Source: a virus. Taken from it: a DNA stretch of 64,000 nt. A model generated the notes under the pieces. The model ran no database searches and was not told the origin of the DNA. It saw only the letters and a program-made list of their open reading frames with translations. Within the stretch, counting starts at the first letter, position 1; each line of letters begins with the position of its first letter. Both the position numbers and the translations under genes were made by a program. The stretch covers positions 1 through 64,000 of the IMG/VR virus record IMGVR_UViG_3300013115_000353; one strand, given 5' to 3'. Shown piece after piece: positions 1-49,241 of this stretch.

Positions 1-468
1 AGCATTGAGCAGATCGATACCGCCAGTGATCTGGCTTGCTACCTCGGCGCCACCATAAATGGAACCAGTGTAGATGTTACCAAGTCGACCGCGACCCGTG
101 CCACCAGCGGTGGTACCCCCTGCGTCCGGTGAGAACACAAAGTCCAGGAAGAAGATAAGTCCGCTTGGCAGACTCATCGGCTGAACACTAACGAGATCGT
201 TGGCGATCAGCCCTGCGAAAACCCGACGGACAATAGGGAATGCGACGGCAGCAAAGCCCTCAACATCTCCAGCAGCCATGGTAGAGTTTTCTCGTAGAAG
301 CTCCTTTGCTTGGTTTTCAAGCAATCGAGCCATTGCGTTGCGGGAATGATCGGCGCCGATACCTTCCAGTAGACCGGTCCGCTCCCACTTATTTAATAAC
401 GCGTGACTTTCGGCACGCATATCACGATTGACCACGCCTTCGGTCAAACGTTCAATAATACTAGACAT
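1..468 (-). CDS. gp23: Major capsid protein, T4 gp23-like (N-terminal part; runs off window)
   Basis: Manual translation MSSIIERLTEGVVNRD...LLENQAKELL...FPIVRRVFAGLIANDLVSVQPMSLPSGLIFFLDF is the classic gp23 signature; SD GGAGGTGA at 475-482. Confidence 0.95.
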   Translation of the reverse strand, partial: MSSIIERLTEGVVNRDMRAESHALLNKWERTGLLEGIGADHSRNAMARLLENQAKELLRENSTMAAGDVEGFAAVAFPIVRRVFAGLIANDLVSVQPMSLPSGLIFFLDFVFSPDAGGTTAGGTGRGRLGNIYTGSIYGGAEVASQITGGIDLLNA

Positions 469-33933: not shown

Positions 33934-34018
33934 TGGTAGGGGCGGTGGGACTTGAACCCACATGCACCAGTTACCCAAGTTTCATGCACCGCTTATAAGA
34001 CGGCTGGGATACGCCCCC
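33934..34018 (-). tRNA. Atypical tRNA-like RNA, anticodon TAT (Ile), no D-arm, long variable region
   Basis: GGGGGCG-TATCCCA-GCCGT-CT-TAT-AA-GCGGT-GCATGAAACTTGGGTAACTGGTGCAT-GTGGG-TTCAAGT-CCCAC-CGCCCCT-ACCA. Confidence 0.75.
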
Positions 34019-34019
34019 T

Positions 34020-34094
34020 TGGTAGGTCCACCAGGAATCGAACCTGGAACGAAAGATTAGAAGTCTTTTGTGATATCCCTTTCACCATAGACCC
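34020..34094 (-). tRNA. trnR: tRNA-Arg(TCT)
   Basis: GGGTCTA...AAAGA-CT-TCT-AA-TCTTT...CCAGG-TTCGATT-CCTGG-TGGACCT-ACCA. Confidence 0.92.
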
Positions 34095-34802: not shown

Positions 34803-34904
34803 TTACTCCGTAGCAACGACATATGCAAAAAATATACCGCACGCTACAGCAGCGGCGAATGCAAATATCATCATGATTTATCTCCTTTAATAGTAGCAAA
34901 TAGG

Positions 34905-34978
34905 TGGGCCTTCTGGGACTTGAACCCAGGACCATCCGGTTATGAGCCGGGTGCTCTGACCAACTGAGCTAAAAGCCC
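34905..34978 (-). tRNA. tRNA with CAT anticodon, most likely tRNA-Ile2 (lysidine-type); CCA not encoded
   Basis: GGGCTTTTAGCTCAGTTGGTCAGAGCA-CCCGG-CT-CAT-AA-CCGGA...GGCCCA; lacks initiator features. Confidence 0.88.
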
Positions 34979-47669: not shown

Positions 47670-49241
47670 TTATCCTGTTTGTATGATACCATAATTAGTT
47701 GTGATGAGAGTGCCAGCACAACTAGCGGCATTCTGTAAAGCAACTCTCGTTACTTTAACGGGATCTATAATACCGTCCACTAACATATCTGTCAATTTTC
47801 CATTTTTAAAATCCCAACCTTTTTCTTCTCCGGATTCCAATATCTTATTAATAATCAAATCTGGAGATTCGTTAGCGTTCAGAGCCATCTGCCTGATGGG
47901 CTCTTTGCATGCAGCTTGTACAATGGCTGCGCCTATAGCGATGTCTCGTTCTTTAGCTGTAATCACTAAAGTATTAGAGGCGCGCAACAATGCACACCCT
48001 CCTCCTGCAATAATCCCCTCTTCCTGCGCAGAGCGTACTGCCTCCAGGGCATCTTCTATCCTATGTTTCTTTTCTGTCATTTCCACTTCGGTTGTGCCTC
48101 CAACACGAATCACTGCTACTCCCGATGCCAGGCGCACAATTCTTTCTTGAACTGCTGTACATTCTTTCAAATCTTCGGTGTCTTTAATTATGTTTTTCAA
48201 CGTTTCTATGCGCTGCTCTACTATTTCAAAATCACATTTACCACCCACTACGGTAGTATTATATTTATTACTCTCAATAAATTTTGCACTGCCTAAATGA
48301 ATCATTTTTACATCTTTAAGTTTGATGCCCGATTCACGAGTAATAAATGTGGCACCAGTAGAAACGGCAAGATCCGAAAGAGTAGTTCGGCGCTCTTCGC
48401 CATAATGGGGAGCCTTAATCGCTGCCACCTTAAGAGTGCCACGCATTGCGTTCATAATCATTGCTGCCAATGCTTGTCCGTCGATGTCTTCCGCTACCAC
48501 CACCAGCGGCCTAGCCTCTCTAGCTGTCATTTCTAGCAAAGGGAGAATCTGTTCTACTGCATCAATCTTGTAATCTGTTACCAGAAGCAACGGATCATCG
48601 TGGTGCATAGTAGCACGACGCTCGTCAGTGATGAAAGCATTAGCGCAATAACCACTATTAAGCCGGAACCCCTCTGTAACATCTAATGAAGTCTCCAAAG
48701 ATCGCGACTCTTCAATAGTAATAGATCCATCTTGACCCACACGATCAACAGCAAGAGCGATAAGTTTTCCGATTGATTCATCATTGTTGGCAGAAATGGT
48801 CGCAACATGAGCGATCTCATCTGAACTTCTAACTGGGCGCGCTTGTGTTCTAAGCTTTTCTGTAATTTCTTTAGTTGCAAGTTCTATTCCTTTTTGTAAA
48901 TCGTAAGGCGAGACACCTGAAGCGACATATTTCTGTGATTCTCTTAAGATTGCTCTCGCCAGTACGGTGGACGTGGTCGTCCCGTCGCCAGCAGTGTTAT
49001 TAGTTTCTACTGCTGCTTGTTTGATAATTTGTACTCCAGCATTTTCAAAGGGATCGTCTAACGCAACAAAGTGCGCCACAGTTACACCGTCCTTAGTAAT
49101 AAATGGTGTCTTTCCTTTCTCCTGTAAAAGTACATTGCGCCCCTTGGGGCCTAGTGTGGAAGCTACGTTGTCAGCAAGAACGTTTACTCCCTTCATAATT
49201 TTCTGTTGTAGAGTTTGTTTGCTGTCATAATCTCTAGTCAA
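47670..49241 (-). CDS. groEL: Chaperonin GroEL
   Basis: TLGPKGRNV, ITKDGVTVA, AGDGTTT, GIIDPVKVTR; no GGM tail. Confidence 0.97.
   Translation of the reverse strand: MTRDYDSKQTLQQKIMKGVNVLADNVASTLGPKGRNVLLQEKGKTPFITKDGVTVAHFVALDDPFENAGVQIIKQAAVETNNTAGDGTTTSTVLARAILRESQKYVASGVSPYDLQKGIELATKEITEKLRTQARPVRSSDEIAHVATISANNDESIGKLIALAVDRVGQDGSITIEESRSLETSLDVTEGFRLNSGYCANAFITDERRATMHHDDPLLLVTDYKIDAVEQILPLLEMTAREARPLVVVAEDIDGQALAAMIMNAMRGTLKVAAIKAPHYGEERRTTLSDLAVSTGATFITRESGIKLKDVKMIHLGSAKFIESNKYNTTVVGGKCDFEIVEQRIETLKNIIKDTEDLKECTAVQERIVRLASGVAVIRVGGTTEVEMTEKKHRIEDALEAVRSAQEEGIIAGGGCALLRASNTLVITAKERDIAIGAAIVQAACKEPIRQMALNANESPDLIINKILESGEEKGWDFKNGKLTDMLVDGIIDPVKVTRVALQNAASCAGTLITTNYGIIQTG

What the first reader, a model, noticed from the sequence alone, without database searches (positions are those of the whole stretch)
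33934..34018. D-armless tRNA-like RNA with UAU anticodon and an alternative core helix
Seen: 7-bp acceptor stem with ACCA, canonical T-arm, and anticodon arm with CU-UAU-AA loop, but only 7 nt (UAUCCCA) where the D-arm should be and a 26-nt variable region. UAUCCCA can pair with UGGGUA in the variable region, followed by ACUGG, which could supply the GG that normally contacts the T-loop. It lies 1 nt from tRNA-Arg, so it is probably co-processed. UAU anticodons are rare in bacteria. Inference: a topologically rewired tRNA, a TilS-independent AUA decoder, or a decoy for anticodon nucleases, rather than a decayed pseudogene.
Basis: partly seen in the sequence, partly recalled or inferred. Interest (0 to 1): 0.72.

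Follow-up and report, generated by a model that had tools for sequence, protein, structure and literature searches.

The report
Rewired non-cloverleaf phage isoleucine tRNA
This 85-base gene in a marine phage is very probably a working isoleucine tRNA for the rare AUA codon; half of its D-arm sits after the anticodon arm instead of before it, a conserved non-cloverleaf layout that gene finders miss and that I found in no paper.

Summary
The element is real. It lies on the minus strand at 34018->33934, 1 nt after tRNA-Arg(UCU). It has a 7-bp acceptor stem, A73-CCA, a canonical T arm and a CUUAUAA anticodon loop, but no D hairpin.

It is not a decayed gene. The 3 nt just 5' of the anticodon stem pair with the 3 nt just 5' of a conserved UARYUGG motif in the variable region. 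This pairing shows strong covariation: 107/120 fully paired against a shuffle mean of 27. RNAalifold predicts the helix unaided.

The motif behaves like D-loop positions A14-G19:
- The next base is A in 64/65 arginine-anticodon members and U in 52/56 isoleucine members, matching known position-20 identity rules.
- R15 covaries with the base before the T stem.

Members sit inside phage tRNA arrays. In one complete phage they fill three of the four Arg isoacceptor slots. They occur unannotated or mislabelled in E. coli, Salmonella and Streptomyces phages.

The window's copy belongs to a subgroup with an extra 3-4 bp helix that crosses the first one, making a pseudoknot. Charging and decoding are inferred, not shown. 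This scan has already found the same Arg/Ile class on other DNA.

The parts
33934..34018 (-). Whole gene: rewired tRNA-Ile(UAU), 85 nt including the encoded CCA
   Evidence: Sequence read. Rfam tRNA 33.5 bits in the permissive scan. Family model R1 gives 92.3 bits, with the next hit in the genome at 24.5 bits.
34012..34018 (-). Acceptor stem, 5' strand (GGGGGCG, nt 1-7)
   Evidence: Pairs with 33938-33944. All 7 pairs covary in the family, 96.8% of cells paired.
34009..34011 (-). Connector U8 A9 U10. Proposed equivalents are U8, A21 and position 22.
   Evidence: U8 and A9 are invariant and U10 is at least 90% conserved in 43 UAU members. The mapping to canonical positions is inference.
34005..34008 (-). 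Helix X, 5' strand (C11 C12 C13, plus A14), directly abutting the anticodon stem. Proposed equivalent of D-stem strand 23-25 and position 26.
   Evidence: Columns 11-13 pair with columns 46-44 in 99.2% of cells, and all three pairs change on both sides. RNAalifold predicts the helix unaided. 107/120 unique sequences are fully paired against a shuffle mean of 26.8.
33988..34004 (-). Anticodon arm (GCCGU CUUAUAA GCGGU). The anticodon UAU lies at 33995-33997.
   Evidence: The loop C U U A U A is invariant in the 43 UAU members. The C29-G41 pair is present.
33984..33987 (-). Helix V, 5' strand (G32 C33 A34 U35)
   Evidence: MFE and centroid structures contain it. It covaries only in the long-linker subgroup of 17 unique sequences: 32:57 GC 9 / CG 5, 33:56 CG 9 / GC 5, 34:55 AU 11 / GU 4. 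It crosses helix X, giving a pseudoknot.
33974..33977 (-). Helix X, 3' strand (U42, G43 G44 G45). Proposed equivalent of D-stem strand 10-12.
   Evidence: Partner of 34005-34008.
33966..33973 (-). Relocated D-loop-like motif U46 A47 A48 C49 U50 G51 G52 U53, read as (13) A14 R15 Y16 Y17 G18 G19 U20
   Evidence: U, A, U, G, G are invariant in the family. The base after GG is A in Arg members and U in Ile members. R15 covaries with the base before the T stem. One member shows an A19:U56 change.
33964..33966 (-). Helix V, 3' strand (U53 G54 C55)
33945..33961 (-). T arm (GUGGG UUCAAGU CCCAC)
   Evidence: 100% of cells paired in the family.
33934..33944 (-). Acceptor 3' strand (CGCCCCU), discriminator A73 (33937) and encoded CCA (33934-33936)
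   Evidence: A73 is present in 56/56 Ile-anticodon members.
34020..34094 (-). Canonical tRNA-Arg(UCU) immediately upstream, with a 1-nt spacer. Probably co-transcribed as a dimeric precursor.
   Evidence: ARAGORN. Rfam 60.9 bits. No terminator-like site lies between the two genes on the minus strand.

Best explanation
The element is a functional phage tRNA-Ile with anticodon UAU. It is transcribed with the upstream tRNA-Arg(UCU), released by RNase P and 3' trimming, charged by the host IleRS, and used to read AUA without lysidine (no TilS needed).

Its core is wired differently from the cloverleaf. After U8 the chain goes straight into one D-stem strand (C11-C13) and on into the anticodon arm. 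The other D-stem strand (G43-G45) and the D-loop (UAACUGG-U, read as A14...G19 U20) come after the anticodon arm. From there the chain runs into the T arm.

Helix X therefore stacks on the anticodon stem as the D stem does. The relocated GG can still dock on the T loop, so an L-shape with the usual tertiary core is kept. In this subgroup a further 3-4 bp helix (V: GCAU/GUGC) crosses helix X, giving a pseudoknot.

Shown here: the conserved family, the covarying helices and the identity-rule-like correlations.
Inferred: the 3D mimicry, processing, aminoacylation and decoding.
For: 1. Family. A scan with the anticodon arm alone and two anticodon-free scans gave more than 120 unique sequences of this layout.

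2. Helix X.
- 99.2% paired, with GC/CG/UA/AU exchanges.
- 107/120 fully paired against a shuffle mean of 26.8 and maximum of 43, in sequences chosen without any requirement on X.
- Predicted by RNAalifold unaided.
- It is part of the MFE structure of short-linker members.

3. D-loop mimicry.
- The motif UARYUGG is invariant at U, A, U, G, G.
- The following base is A in 64/65 Arg-anticodon members and U in 52/56 Ile members (Fisher 2.6e-32, uncorrected for relatedness). This matches A20 (Arg) and U20 (Ile) in the identity table of PMC9976931.
- R15:N48 is A:U in 115/116 and G:C in 4/6.
- One member has A19 together with U56.

4. Identity. A73 in 56/56 Ile members and A/G73 in 58/66 Arg members. 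The window copy has A35, U36, A37, A38 and C29-G41.

5. Context.
- 146 of 159 occurrences have a canonical tRNA in the locus, at a median gap of 74 nt. 143 of these are on the same strand.
- In a CheckV-complete 138.5-kb phage the canonical Arg set is ACG only, and rewired genes supply CCG, UCU and CCU.
- In Streptomyces phage Yaboi the AGA and AGG readers are only rewired genes.

6. Demand. In this phage AUA is 24% of Ile codons, 15.3 per 1000.

7. Model R1, built from UAU members only, scores rewired Arg genes of E. coli and Streptomyces phages at 61-78 bits. Canonical tRNAs score at most 33.5 bits.
Against: - No direct RNA evidence. The only RNA-library signal is a few short contigs of related strains over the element. 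These may be DNA carry-over and cannot show ends or charging.
- The Fisher tests ignore relatedness of the sequences.
- The E. coli Ile determinants C4-G69 and U12-A23 are absent: G4-C69, and C-G in helix X.
- An unmodified U34 could also read AUG.
- Yaboi carries a canonical Ile(GAU) as well as a rewired one, so rewired genes are not always the sole reader.
- A CAU tRNA 885 nt upstream could be a lysidine-type tRNA-Ile2, which would make this gene redundant.
- Earlier notes of this scan say that a later check of the same claim on other DNA found 'part of it fell', with no detail given. They also say nobody has seen such an RNA charged.
Confidence: 0.7

Rival explanations
1. It is a tRNA mimic that is not used in translation. 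It would act as a decoy or sponge for a host tRNA-targeting nuclease, toxin or modification enzyme, presenting an Ile-like anticodon arm and elbow.
For: Phage tRNAs are known counter-measures to tRNA-cleaving defences (my own knowledge; cf. PMC12851939, listed). Several carrier phages also encode tRNA-repair genes: RNA ligase and polynucleotide kinase in Yaboi. The unusual core could alter recognition by host enzymes.
Against: A decoy does not need a 7-bp acceptor stem, A73-CCA, isotype-specific position-20 and discriminator rules, or non-redundant filling of Arg isoacceptor slots. I know of no defence nuclease specific for a UAU tRNA-Ile, which hosts normally lack.
Confidence: 0.12
2. It is a working tRNA with a different coding role. 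It might be charged by another synthetase, or read AUG as well as AUA. It would then recode or tune translation rather than simply supply Ile at AUA.
For: U34 can wobble to G if unmodified. The E. coli Ile determinants C4-G69 and U12-A23 are missing. Non-serine anticodons, UAU among them, predominate among allo-tRNAs in metagenomes (PMC5389517).
Against: A73, A35, U36, A37, A38, C29-G41 and U at the position-20 equivalent all match the Ile set. GAU-anticodon members share the same U20/A73 pattern. Canonical phage tRNA-Ile(UAU) genes carry the identical anticodon arm.
Confidence: 0.08
3. It is a decayed tRNA pseudogene, a tRNA gene fragment or an integration-site remnant. On this view the apparent core helix is chance.
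For: It has no D hairpin. ARAGORN gives no call. The single-sequence folding energy is ordinary (z = -0.21). Partial tRNA genes are a known source of false tRNA calls (PMC9897764).
Against: More than 120 distinct homologues retain every helix through compensatory change. The loop and motif positions are invariant. The gene is full length with a paired acceptor stem and sits inside tRNA arrays of large virulent-type phages.
Confidence: 0.02

Closest known systems
Canonical phage and bacterial tRNA-Ile reading AUA: phage tRNA-Ile(UAU) and bacterial tRNA-Ile2(k2C-AU); Rfam RF00005
   Same: It has the same acceptor/T branch (7/5 bp), A73 and T loop. Its anticodon arm CCGUCUUAUAAGCGG is identical to that of dozens of ordinary phage tRNA-Ile(UAU) genes. 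The presumed job is the same: supplying a reader for AUA.
   Different: There is no D hairpin. One D-stem strand and the D-loop lie 3' of the anticodon arm. This copy has an extra crossing helix. ARAGORN misses it and Rfam scores it at 33.5 bits, against 61-70 bits for the window's canonical tRNAs.
Rewired-D-arm phage tRNA-Arg genes (UCU, CCU, ACG, CCG, UCG). They are unannotated in E. coli and Salmonella Vequintavirinae phages and mislabelled tRNA-Val(aac) in Streptomyces phage Yaboi.
   Same: The architecture, connector UAU-XXX-N, helix X and UAAYUGG motif are the same. An Ile-type member is 78-82% identical to the E. coli and Salmonella phage Arg-type genes over 77 nt. R1, built from Ile members only, scores them at 61-78 bits.
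   Different: They differ in the anticodon (position 35 C instead of A), in having A instead of U after GG, and in a discriminator that is mostly G or A. Most have an 8-nt linker and no helix V.
Metazoan mitochondrial D-armless tRNAs (for example tRNA-Ser(AGY)) and the synthetic mini HisT (PMC11551756)
   Same: Both lack a D hairpin between the acceptor and anticodon stems. Mini HisT shows that E. coli HisRS, EF-Tu and the ribosome can accept a D-armless tRNA.
   Different: Those molecules simply lose the D arm and the D/T elbow contact and become shorter and Y-shaped. This family keeps a D-stem-like helix and a GG-containing D-loop mimic, and is of normal to long length (76-86 nt). According to that paper, natural armless tRNAs were known only from mitochondria.
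Class II tRNAs and allo-tRNAs with long variable arms (PMC5389517)
   Same: They have a long region between the anticodon and T arms. In this subgroup that region forms a short stem (helix V). Allo-tRNAs also often carry UAU.
   Different: Class II tRNAs and allo-tRNAs keep a normal D arm, and allo-tRNAs have 8/4 or 9/3 acceptor/T branches. Here the branch is 7/5 and the variable-region loop itself supplies the D-stem strand and D-loop.
Circularly permuted tRNA genes of Cyanidioschyzon merolae (from my own knowledge, not checked here)
   Same: The gene order of tRNA parts departs from the cloverleaf order.
   Different: There the whole gene is circularly permuted and processing restores a normal cloverleaf tRNA. 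Here only the segment 10-20 is displaced, and no circular permutation of the molecule could restore the canonical order. The mature RNA itself must be non-cloverleaf.

Membership tests
tRNA, cloverleaf (Rfam RF00005) | 7-bp acceptor stem, discriminator, 3' CCA | tested here: met
   GGGGGCG/CGCCCCU, A73, encoded CCA.
tRNA, cloverleaf (Rfam RF00005) | 5-bp T stem with a UUCRANY loop | tested here: met
   GUGGG UUCAAGU CCCAC.
tRNA, cloverleaf (Rfam RF00005) | 5-bp anticodon stem, 7-nt loop with U33 and a purine at 37 | tested here: met
   GCCGU CUUAUAA GCGGU.
tRNA, cloverleaf (Rfam RF00005) | D stem-loop (hairpin) between positions 9 and 26 | tested here: not met
   Only 7 nt lie there. Infernal deletes 15 model positions. 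ARAGORN gives no call.
tRNA, cloverleaf (Rfam RF00005) | Score at or above the gathering cut-off (29 bits) | tested here: inconclusive
   33.5 bits in the permissive scan of 401 nt, but not reported by the default gathering scan of the window.
Rewired-D-arm phage tRNAs (Arg/Ile class; undescribed in the papers searched) | 7-nt connector U8-A-N-XXX-N running directly into the anticodon stem | tested here: met
   UAUCCCA. 117 of 124 parsed sequences have 7 nt, including a few false parses.
Rewired-D-arm phage tRNAs (Arg/Ile class; undescribed in the papers searched) | 3-bp helix between XXX and the 3 nt immediately 5' of the motif | tested here: met
   CCC/GGG here. Family covariation.
Rewired-D-arm phage tRNAs (Arg/Ile class; undescribed in the papers searched) | Motif U-A-R-Y-U-G-G followed by the isotype-specific base (U for Ile, A for Arg) | tested here: met
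   UAACUGG-U with anticodon UAU. The rule is shown.
Rewired-D-arm phage tRNAs (Arg/Ile class; undescribed in the papers searched) | High score to a covariance model of the class | tested here: met
   R1 gives 92.3 bits. The window sequence is in the seed, so this is partly circular. Non-seed Arg members score 61-78 bits.
Bacterial tRNA-Ile identity set (PMC9976931, Table 1) | A73; A35, U36, A37, A38; C29-G41 | tested here: met
   All are present. The table was read.
Bacterial tRNA-Ile identity set (PMC9976931, Table 1) | U20 in the D loop | tested here: met
   U53 follows G51 G52. This holds only under the proposed numbering. 52/56 Ile members have U.
Bacterial tRNA-Ile identity set (PMC9976931, Table 1) | C4-G69 and U12-A23 | tested here: not met
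   G4-C69, and helix X is C-G at all three pairs. These determinants were defined in E. coli, and the host here is unknown.
Bacterial tRNA-Ile identity set (PMC9976931, Table 1) | Aminoacylation by IleRS | not testable with these tools
   Needs an in vitro charging assay.
Mitochondrial-type D-armless tRNA | Loss of the D arm together with loss of D-loop/T-loop elbow contacts, in a shortened molecule | tested here: not met
   The GG motif is conserved and the T loop is canonical. R15:N48 covaries and one member shows 19:56 covariation. Length is 85 nt.
Class II (long variable arm) tRNA | Normal D arm plus a self-contained variable-arm hairpin | tested here: not met
   There is no D arm. Helix V encloses a 16-nt loop that pairs outside it, and it exists only in a 17-member subgroup.

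The most novel reading that the evidence does not exclude
The rewiring is adaptive, not neutral. These are fully working tRNAs that bacterial synthetases, EF-Tu and ribosomes accept. Their altered core makes them poor substrates for host tRNA-targeting defence nucleases, toxins or turnover pathways, or for a phage-made nuclease that removes host tRNAs. Phages would thereby keep decoding AUA, AGA and AGG while the host's own tRNAs are attacked.
Probability: 0.15. Interest if true: 0.92.

Novelty: new variant of a known kind. Interest (0 to 1): 0.8.

Why it matters
A 2024 paper states that all known bacterial tRNAs are cloverleaves and that natural armless tRNAs exist only in mitochondria (PMC11551756). 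If these genes work, four things follow:
- They are a large natural class of non-cloverleaf tRNAs used by ordinary bacterial translation machinery. This would show that the L-shape can be built with a different strand order.
- They offer a natural test of what IleRS, ArgRS, RNase P, EF-Tu and the ribosome really read in the tRNA core.
- Phage tRNA inventories are systematically under-counted or mislabelled. ARAGORN overlapped only 10 of 159 occurrences, and one gene is deposited as tRNA-Val(aac).
- Members in E. coli K-12 phages make the question directly testable at the bench.

Tried and rejected
1. Single-sequence thermodynamics. The MFE of the window RNA is no better than shuffles (z = -0.21). 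MFE structures of several members do not show helix X. This is not informative either way.

2. Helix V as a general feature: rejected. It is only 56% paired in the 43-sequence alignment. It is absent from the 8-nt-linker and short-linker groups and real only in the long-linker subgroup.

3. UA/UA pairing (U8 A9 with U46 A47). All four bases are invariant, so it cannot be tested by covariation.

4. A first BLAST of 601 nt against isolated phages found nothing over the element. Short queries were needed.

5. Expression. RNA-labelled runs hold only a few short contigs of related strains over the element. Contigs cannot show ends, strand or level, and DNA carry-over is possible. I count this as no evidence.

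6. Syntenic-allele test. Among 52 loci with a homologue of the upstream 158-aa gene, one close relative (L371, 86% identity) has the same Arg + rewired-Ile pair. One distant relative (L397) has Arg(UCU) followed by a canonical Ile(UAU), but its tRNAs are not alignable to the window's. This is loose synteny only.

7. Idea that tRNAs with a normal D arm plus a UAAUUGG-containing variable region are evolutionary intermediates: rejected. Their variable arm is a separate hairpin with a CAGAUAA loop. This is a different odd class.

8. 'Phage-only' claim. The genome scan found 19 hits, all on MAG contigs, many with dense tRNA arrays. I did not resolve whether those contigs are phage or cellular.

9. 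Literature. Seven full-text searches found no description. Subscription-only papers are not covered.

10. PHROGs gave no function for the flanking small ORFs.

Full report
**What is there.**
The element lies on the minus strand, 34018 down to 33934. As RNA it reads:

GGGGGCG UAU CCC A GCCGU CUUAUAA GCGGU GCAU GAAACU UGGG UAACUGG U GCAU GUGGG UUCAAGU CCCAC CGCCCCU A CCA

- The gene begins 1 nt after the CCA end of a canonical tRNA-Arg(UCU) at 34094..34020.
- ARAGORN does not call it, and the default Rfam scan omits it.
- A permissive Rfam scan scores it as tRNA at 33.5 bits (cut-off 29), with the D arm deleted and a 23-nt insertion.
- Its folding energy alone is unremarkable (z = -0.21).

**Surroundings.**
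- The window is part of an 85,455-bp IMG/VR virus record, 43.5% G+C, judged about 44% complete.
- Nearly all genes are on the minus strand. They include a family-B-type DNA polymerase (phrog_405) and a GroEL-like chaperonin.
- ARAGORN finds only Thr(GGU), Arg(UCU) and a CAU tRNA.
- No terminator-like site separates tRNA-Arg from the element.
- A 77-aa ORF starts 13 nt downstream.
- The phage uses AUA for 24% of Ile codons (15.3 per 1000) and AGA for 28% of Arg codons.
- Its DNA recurs in marine and seawater metagenomes of at least a dozen studies.

**Homologues.**
- A scan of viral contigs with the 15-nt anticodon arm alone returned many ordinary phage tRNA-Ile(UAU) genes. It also returned 11 sequences with the same D-armless layout. 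By eye, all 11 had a complementary pair of triplets, in six different combinations.
- Two further scans used only the variable-region motif plus the T arm, with the anticodon left free. A motif-free structural scanner was also run. Together they raised the set to more than 120 unique sequences.
- Anticodons found are UAU and GAU (Ile); UCU, CCU, ACG, CCG and UCG (Arg); and one CUU (Lys?) candidate.
- In isolated phages, members are present but unannotated in E. coli and Salmonella Vequintavirinae (UPEC06, A5-4, A73, W70, SSBI34), as Arg-UCU.
- About 37 Streptomyces phages also carry members. In Yaboi one is deposited as 'tRNA-Val(aac)' and two others are unannotated.
- A scan of one genome for each of 185,579 prokaryotic species gave 19 hits. 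All were on MAG contigs, many with dense tRNA arrays.

**The core helix.**
- In a MAFFT alignment of 43 unique UAU members, nt 11-13 pair with the 3 nt immediately 5' of the conserved U-A-R-Y-U-G-G.
- 99.2% of cells are paired, and all three pairs change on both sides: 12:45 is GC 17, CG 14, UA 7, AU 2; 13:44 is CG 24, GC 9, UA 5.
- RNAalifold, given no hint, predicts exactly acceptor + this helix + anticodon stem + T arm.
- In 120 unique Ile and Arg sequences chosen with no condition on this helix, 107 are fully paired. Shuffling the partners gives a mean of 26.8 and a maximum of 43 in 2000 shuffles. Eighteen triplet combinations occur.
The covarying core is CCC/GGG. A14-U42 is not conserved (23/120). 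The UA/UA part is invariant and untestable.

**The relocated D-loop.**
The motif after the 3' strand matches the D-loop consensus A14 R15 Y16 Y17 G18 G19. Three observations support that numbering:
1. The next base is A in 64 of 65 Arg-anticodon members and U in 52 of 56 Ile members (Fisher 2.6e-32, not corrected for relatedness). The scans that supplied these sequences did not fix the anticodon. A20 is the main bacterial ArgRS determinant and U20 is listed for bacterial tRNA-Ile (PMC9976931).
2. The R15 position covaries with the base just before the T stem, as the Levitt pair does: A:U in 115 of 116 and G:C in 4 of 6.
3. One ACG member has UAAUUGA-A together with a UUUGACU T loop, that is A19 with U56. 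This is a single sequence and anecdotal.

Discriminators also follow the rules: A73 in 56 of 56 Ile members and G or A in 58 of 66 Arg members.

**Proposed wiring (inference).**
- Canonical order: 7-8-9-[10-13]-[14-21]-[22-25]-26-anticodon arm-44..48-T arm.
- Order here: 7-U8-A(21)-U(22)-[23-25]-26-anticodon arm-linker-[10-12]-U(13)-[A14..G19 N20]-2 to 9 nt-T arm.

Each new junction (8 to 21, 44 to 10, 20 to 48) joins residues that are neighbours in the canonical L-shape. The D stem can therefore still stack on the anticodon stem, and G18 G19 can still reach the T loop.

**What is particular to this copy.**
- It belongs to a long-linker subgroup of 17 unique sequences.
- In this subgroup the 3-4 nt after the anticodon stem pair with N20 and the two bases after it: GCA/UGC, GGA/UCC, CCA/UGG, CCG/UGG.
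- This helix V crosses helix X, so the core is an H-type pseudoknot.
- Helix V is absent from the 8-nt-linker group (most Arg genes) and from the short-linker group.

**Function.**
- Of 159 occurrences, 146 have a canonical tRNA in the same locus, at a median gap of 74 nt. Forty-eight lie within 10 nt and 143 are on the same strand. Only 15 share a locus with a canonical tRNA of the same anticodon.
- In a CheckV-complete 138.5-kb phage, all tRNAs lie in one region. The only canonical Arg gene is ACG. Three tandem rewired genes supply UCU, CCU and CCG. Together that is a non-redundant set for all six Arg codons.
- In Yaboi the AGA and AGG readers are only rewired genes. Ile(GAU) exists in both forms.
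- Model R1, built only from UAU members, separates rewired genes (38.7-92 bits) from canonical tRNAs (at most 33.5 bits).
- Ile-type and Arg-type genes are 78-82% identical. They differ chiefly at positions 35 and 20, which suggests alloacceptor switching within one lineage.

I conclude that the window's gene is most likely a working AUA-reading tRNA-Ile (confidence 0.7). Transcription, processing, charging and decoding are not shown. RNA-library contigs over the element are too weak to count.

**Rivals.**
- A non-translational decoy is possible but does not explain the acceptor, discriminator and position-20 rules or the slot filling.
- A different coding role is possible, because two E. coli Ile determinants are absent and U34 may wobble.
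- A pseudogene or gene fragment is excluded by covariation.

**Comparison with what is known.**
- I found no description of this layout in seven full-text searches.
- A 2024 paper states that arm-size variation is the whole extent of structural diversity in cytosolic tRNAs. It also states that natural armless tRNAs are confined to mitochondria.
- Allo-tRNAs and mitochondrial D-armless tRNAs differ in defining features; see the membership table.
- Earlier notes of this same scan report the same Arg/Ile class, and a Tyr analogue, on many other genomes, also without a paper. One note records that a later check of the claim on other DNA found 'part of it fell', with no detail. Another records that no one has seen such an RNA charged. 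These are leads, not support. My scores rest.

**Verdict.**
The element is a member of a large, apparently undescribed class of phage tRNAs with a transposed half D-arm: a new variant of a known kind.

Noticed in passing
L230:1495-1573 (Streptomyces phage Yaboi NC_048730.1 86686-86764); also 74543-74616 and 91004-91080 of that record: The gene deposited as tRNA-Val(aac) is a rewired tRNA-Arg(UCU). Two further rewired genes, Ile-GAU and Arg-CCU, are unannotated. The record has no canonical AGA or AGG reader.
   Followed up: partly
L228:3001-3077 (Escherichia phage UPEC06 MW250786.1 52220-52296), and phages A5-4, A73, W70, A7_1, LTH01, SSBI34: E. coli and Salmonella Vequintavirinae phages carry an unannotated rewired tRNA-Arg(UCU) about 20 nt upstream of a CAU tRNA. 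In A73 a hypothetical protein is annotated over it. These are lab-tractable carriers.
   Followed up: partly
L272 11003-11080 (-) (IMGVR_UViG_3300027902_000011): This is a rewired-layout gene with anticodon CUU (Lys), motif UAAUAGG-U and helix X CCU/AGG. It is the only non-Arg, non-Ile member seen, and its anticodon stem has one mismatch.
   Followed up: no
L162, L177, L205 and L208 (one shared sequence, anticodon ACG): The motif is UAAUUGA-A instead of ..UGG-A, together with T loop UUUGACU. That is a G19:C56 to A19:U56 double change at the presumed elbow pair.
   Followed up: no
25 unique sequences, e.g. L240, L244, L247, L253, L260: These are 87-88-nt tRNAs with a normal D arm, anticodon UAU, and a variable-arm hairpin whose loop CAGAUAA resembles the tRNA-Ile(GAU) anticodon loop. 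They seem to be the 'two anticodon arms' class noted earlier in this scan (e1-121598).
   Followed up: partly
L009, L086, L028, L032, L077, L104: These are phage tRNAs with a normal D arm, anticodon UAU and a long class-II-like variable arm. They may be related to allo-tRNAs with UAU (PMC5389517).
   Followed up: no
window 34903-34978 (-): This is a CAU-anticodon tRNA with G1-C72 and A73. It could be elongator Met or a lysidine-type tRNA-Ile2. If the latter, the phage would carry two AUA readers.
   Followed up: partly
window 33964-33992 (-): GGUGCAUG occurs twice as a direct repeat, 22 nt apart, flanking the relocated D-strand and loop. Its UGCA core is self-complementary and supplies both strands of helix V. 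It may be a trace of how the insertion arose.
   Followed up: no
window 47670-49241 (-): A phage-encoded GroEL-like chaperonin (phrog_5725, E = 5.5e-136).
   Followed up: no
L044 2881 (-) (IMGVR_UViG_3300031993_000244): A more divergent UAU member. It has a 6-bp long-range helix (CAUCUC/GAGAUG) and a GCGGUGCCC segment instead of UAAYUGG.
   Followed up: no
L423 3866-3943 and 4339-4764 (complete 138.5-kb phage G002): ARAGORN reports a tRNA with a 2-base anticodon call ('ct') and a permuted tmRNA in the same tRNA region as the three rewired Arg genes.
   Followed up: no
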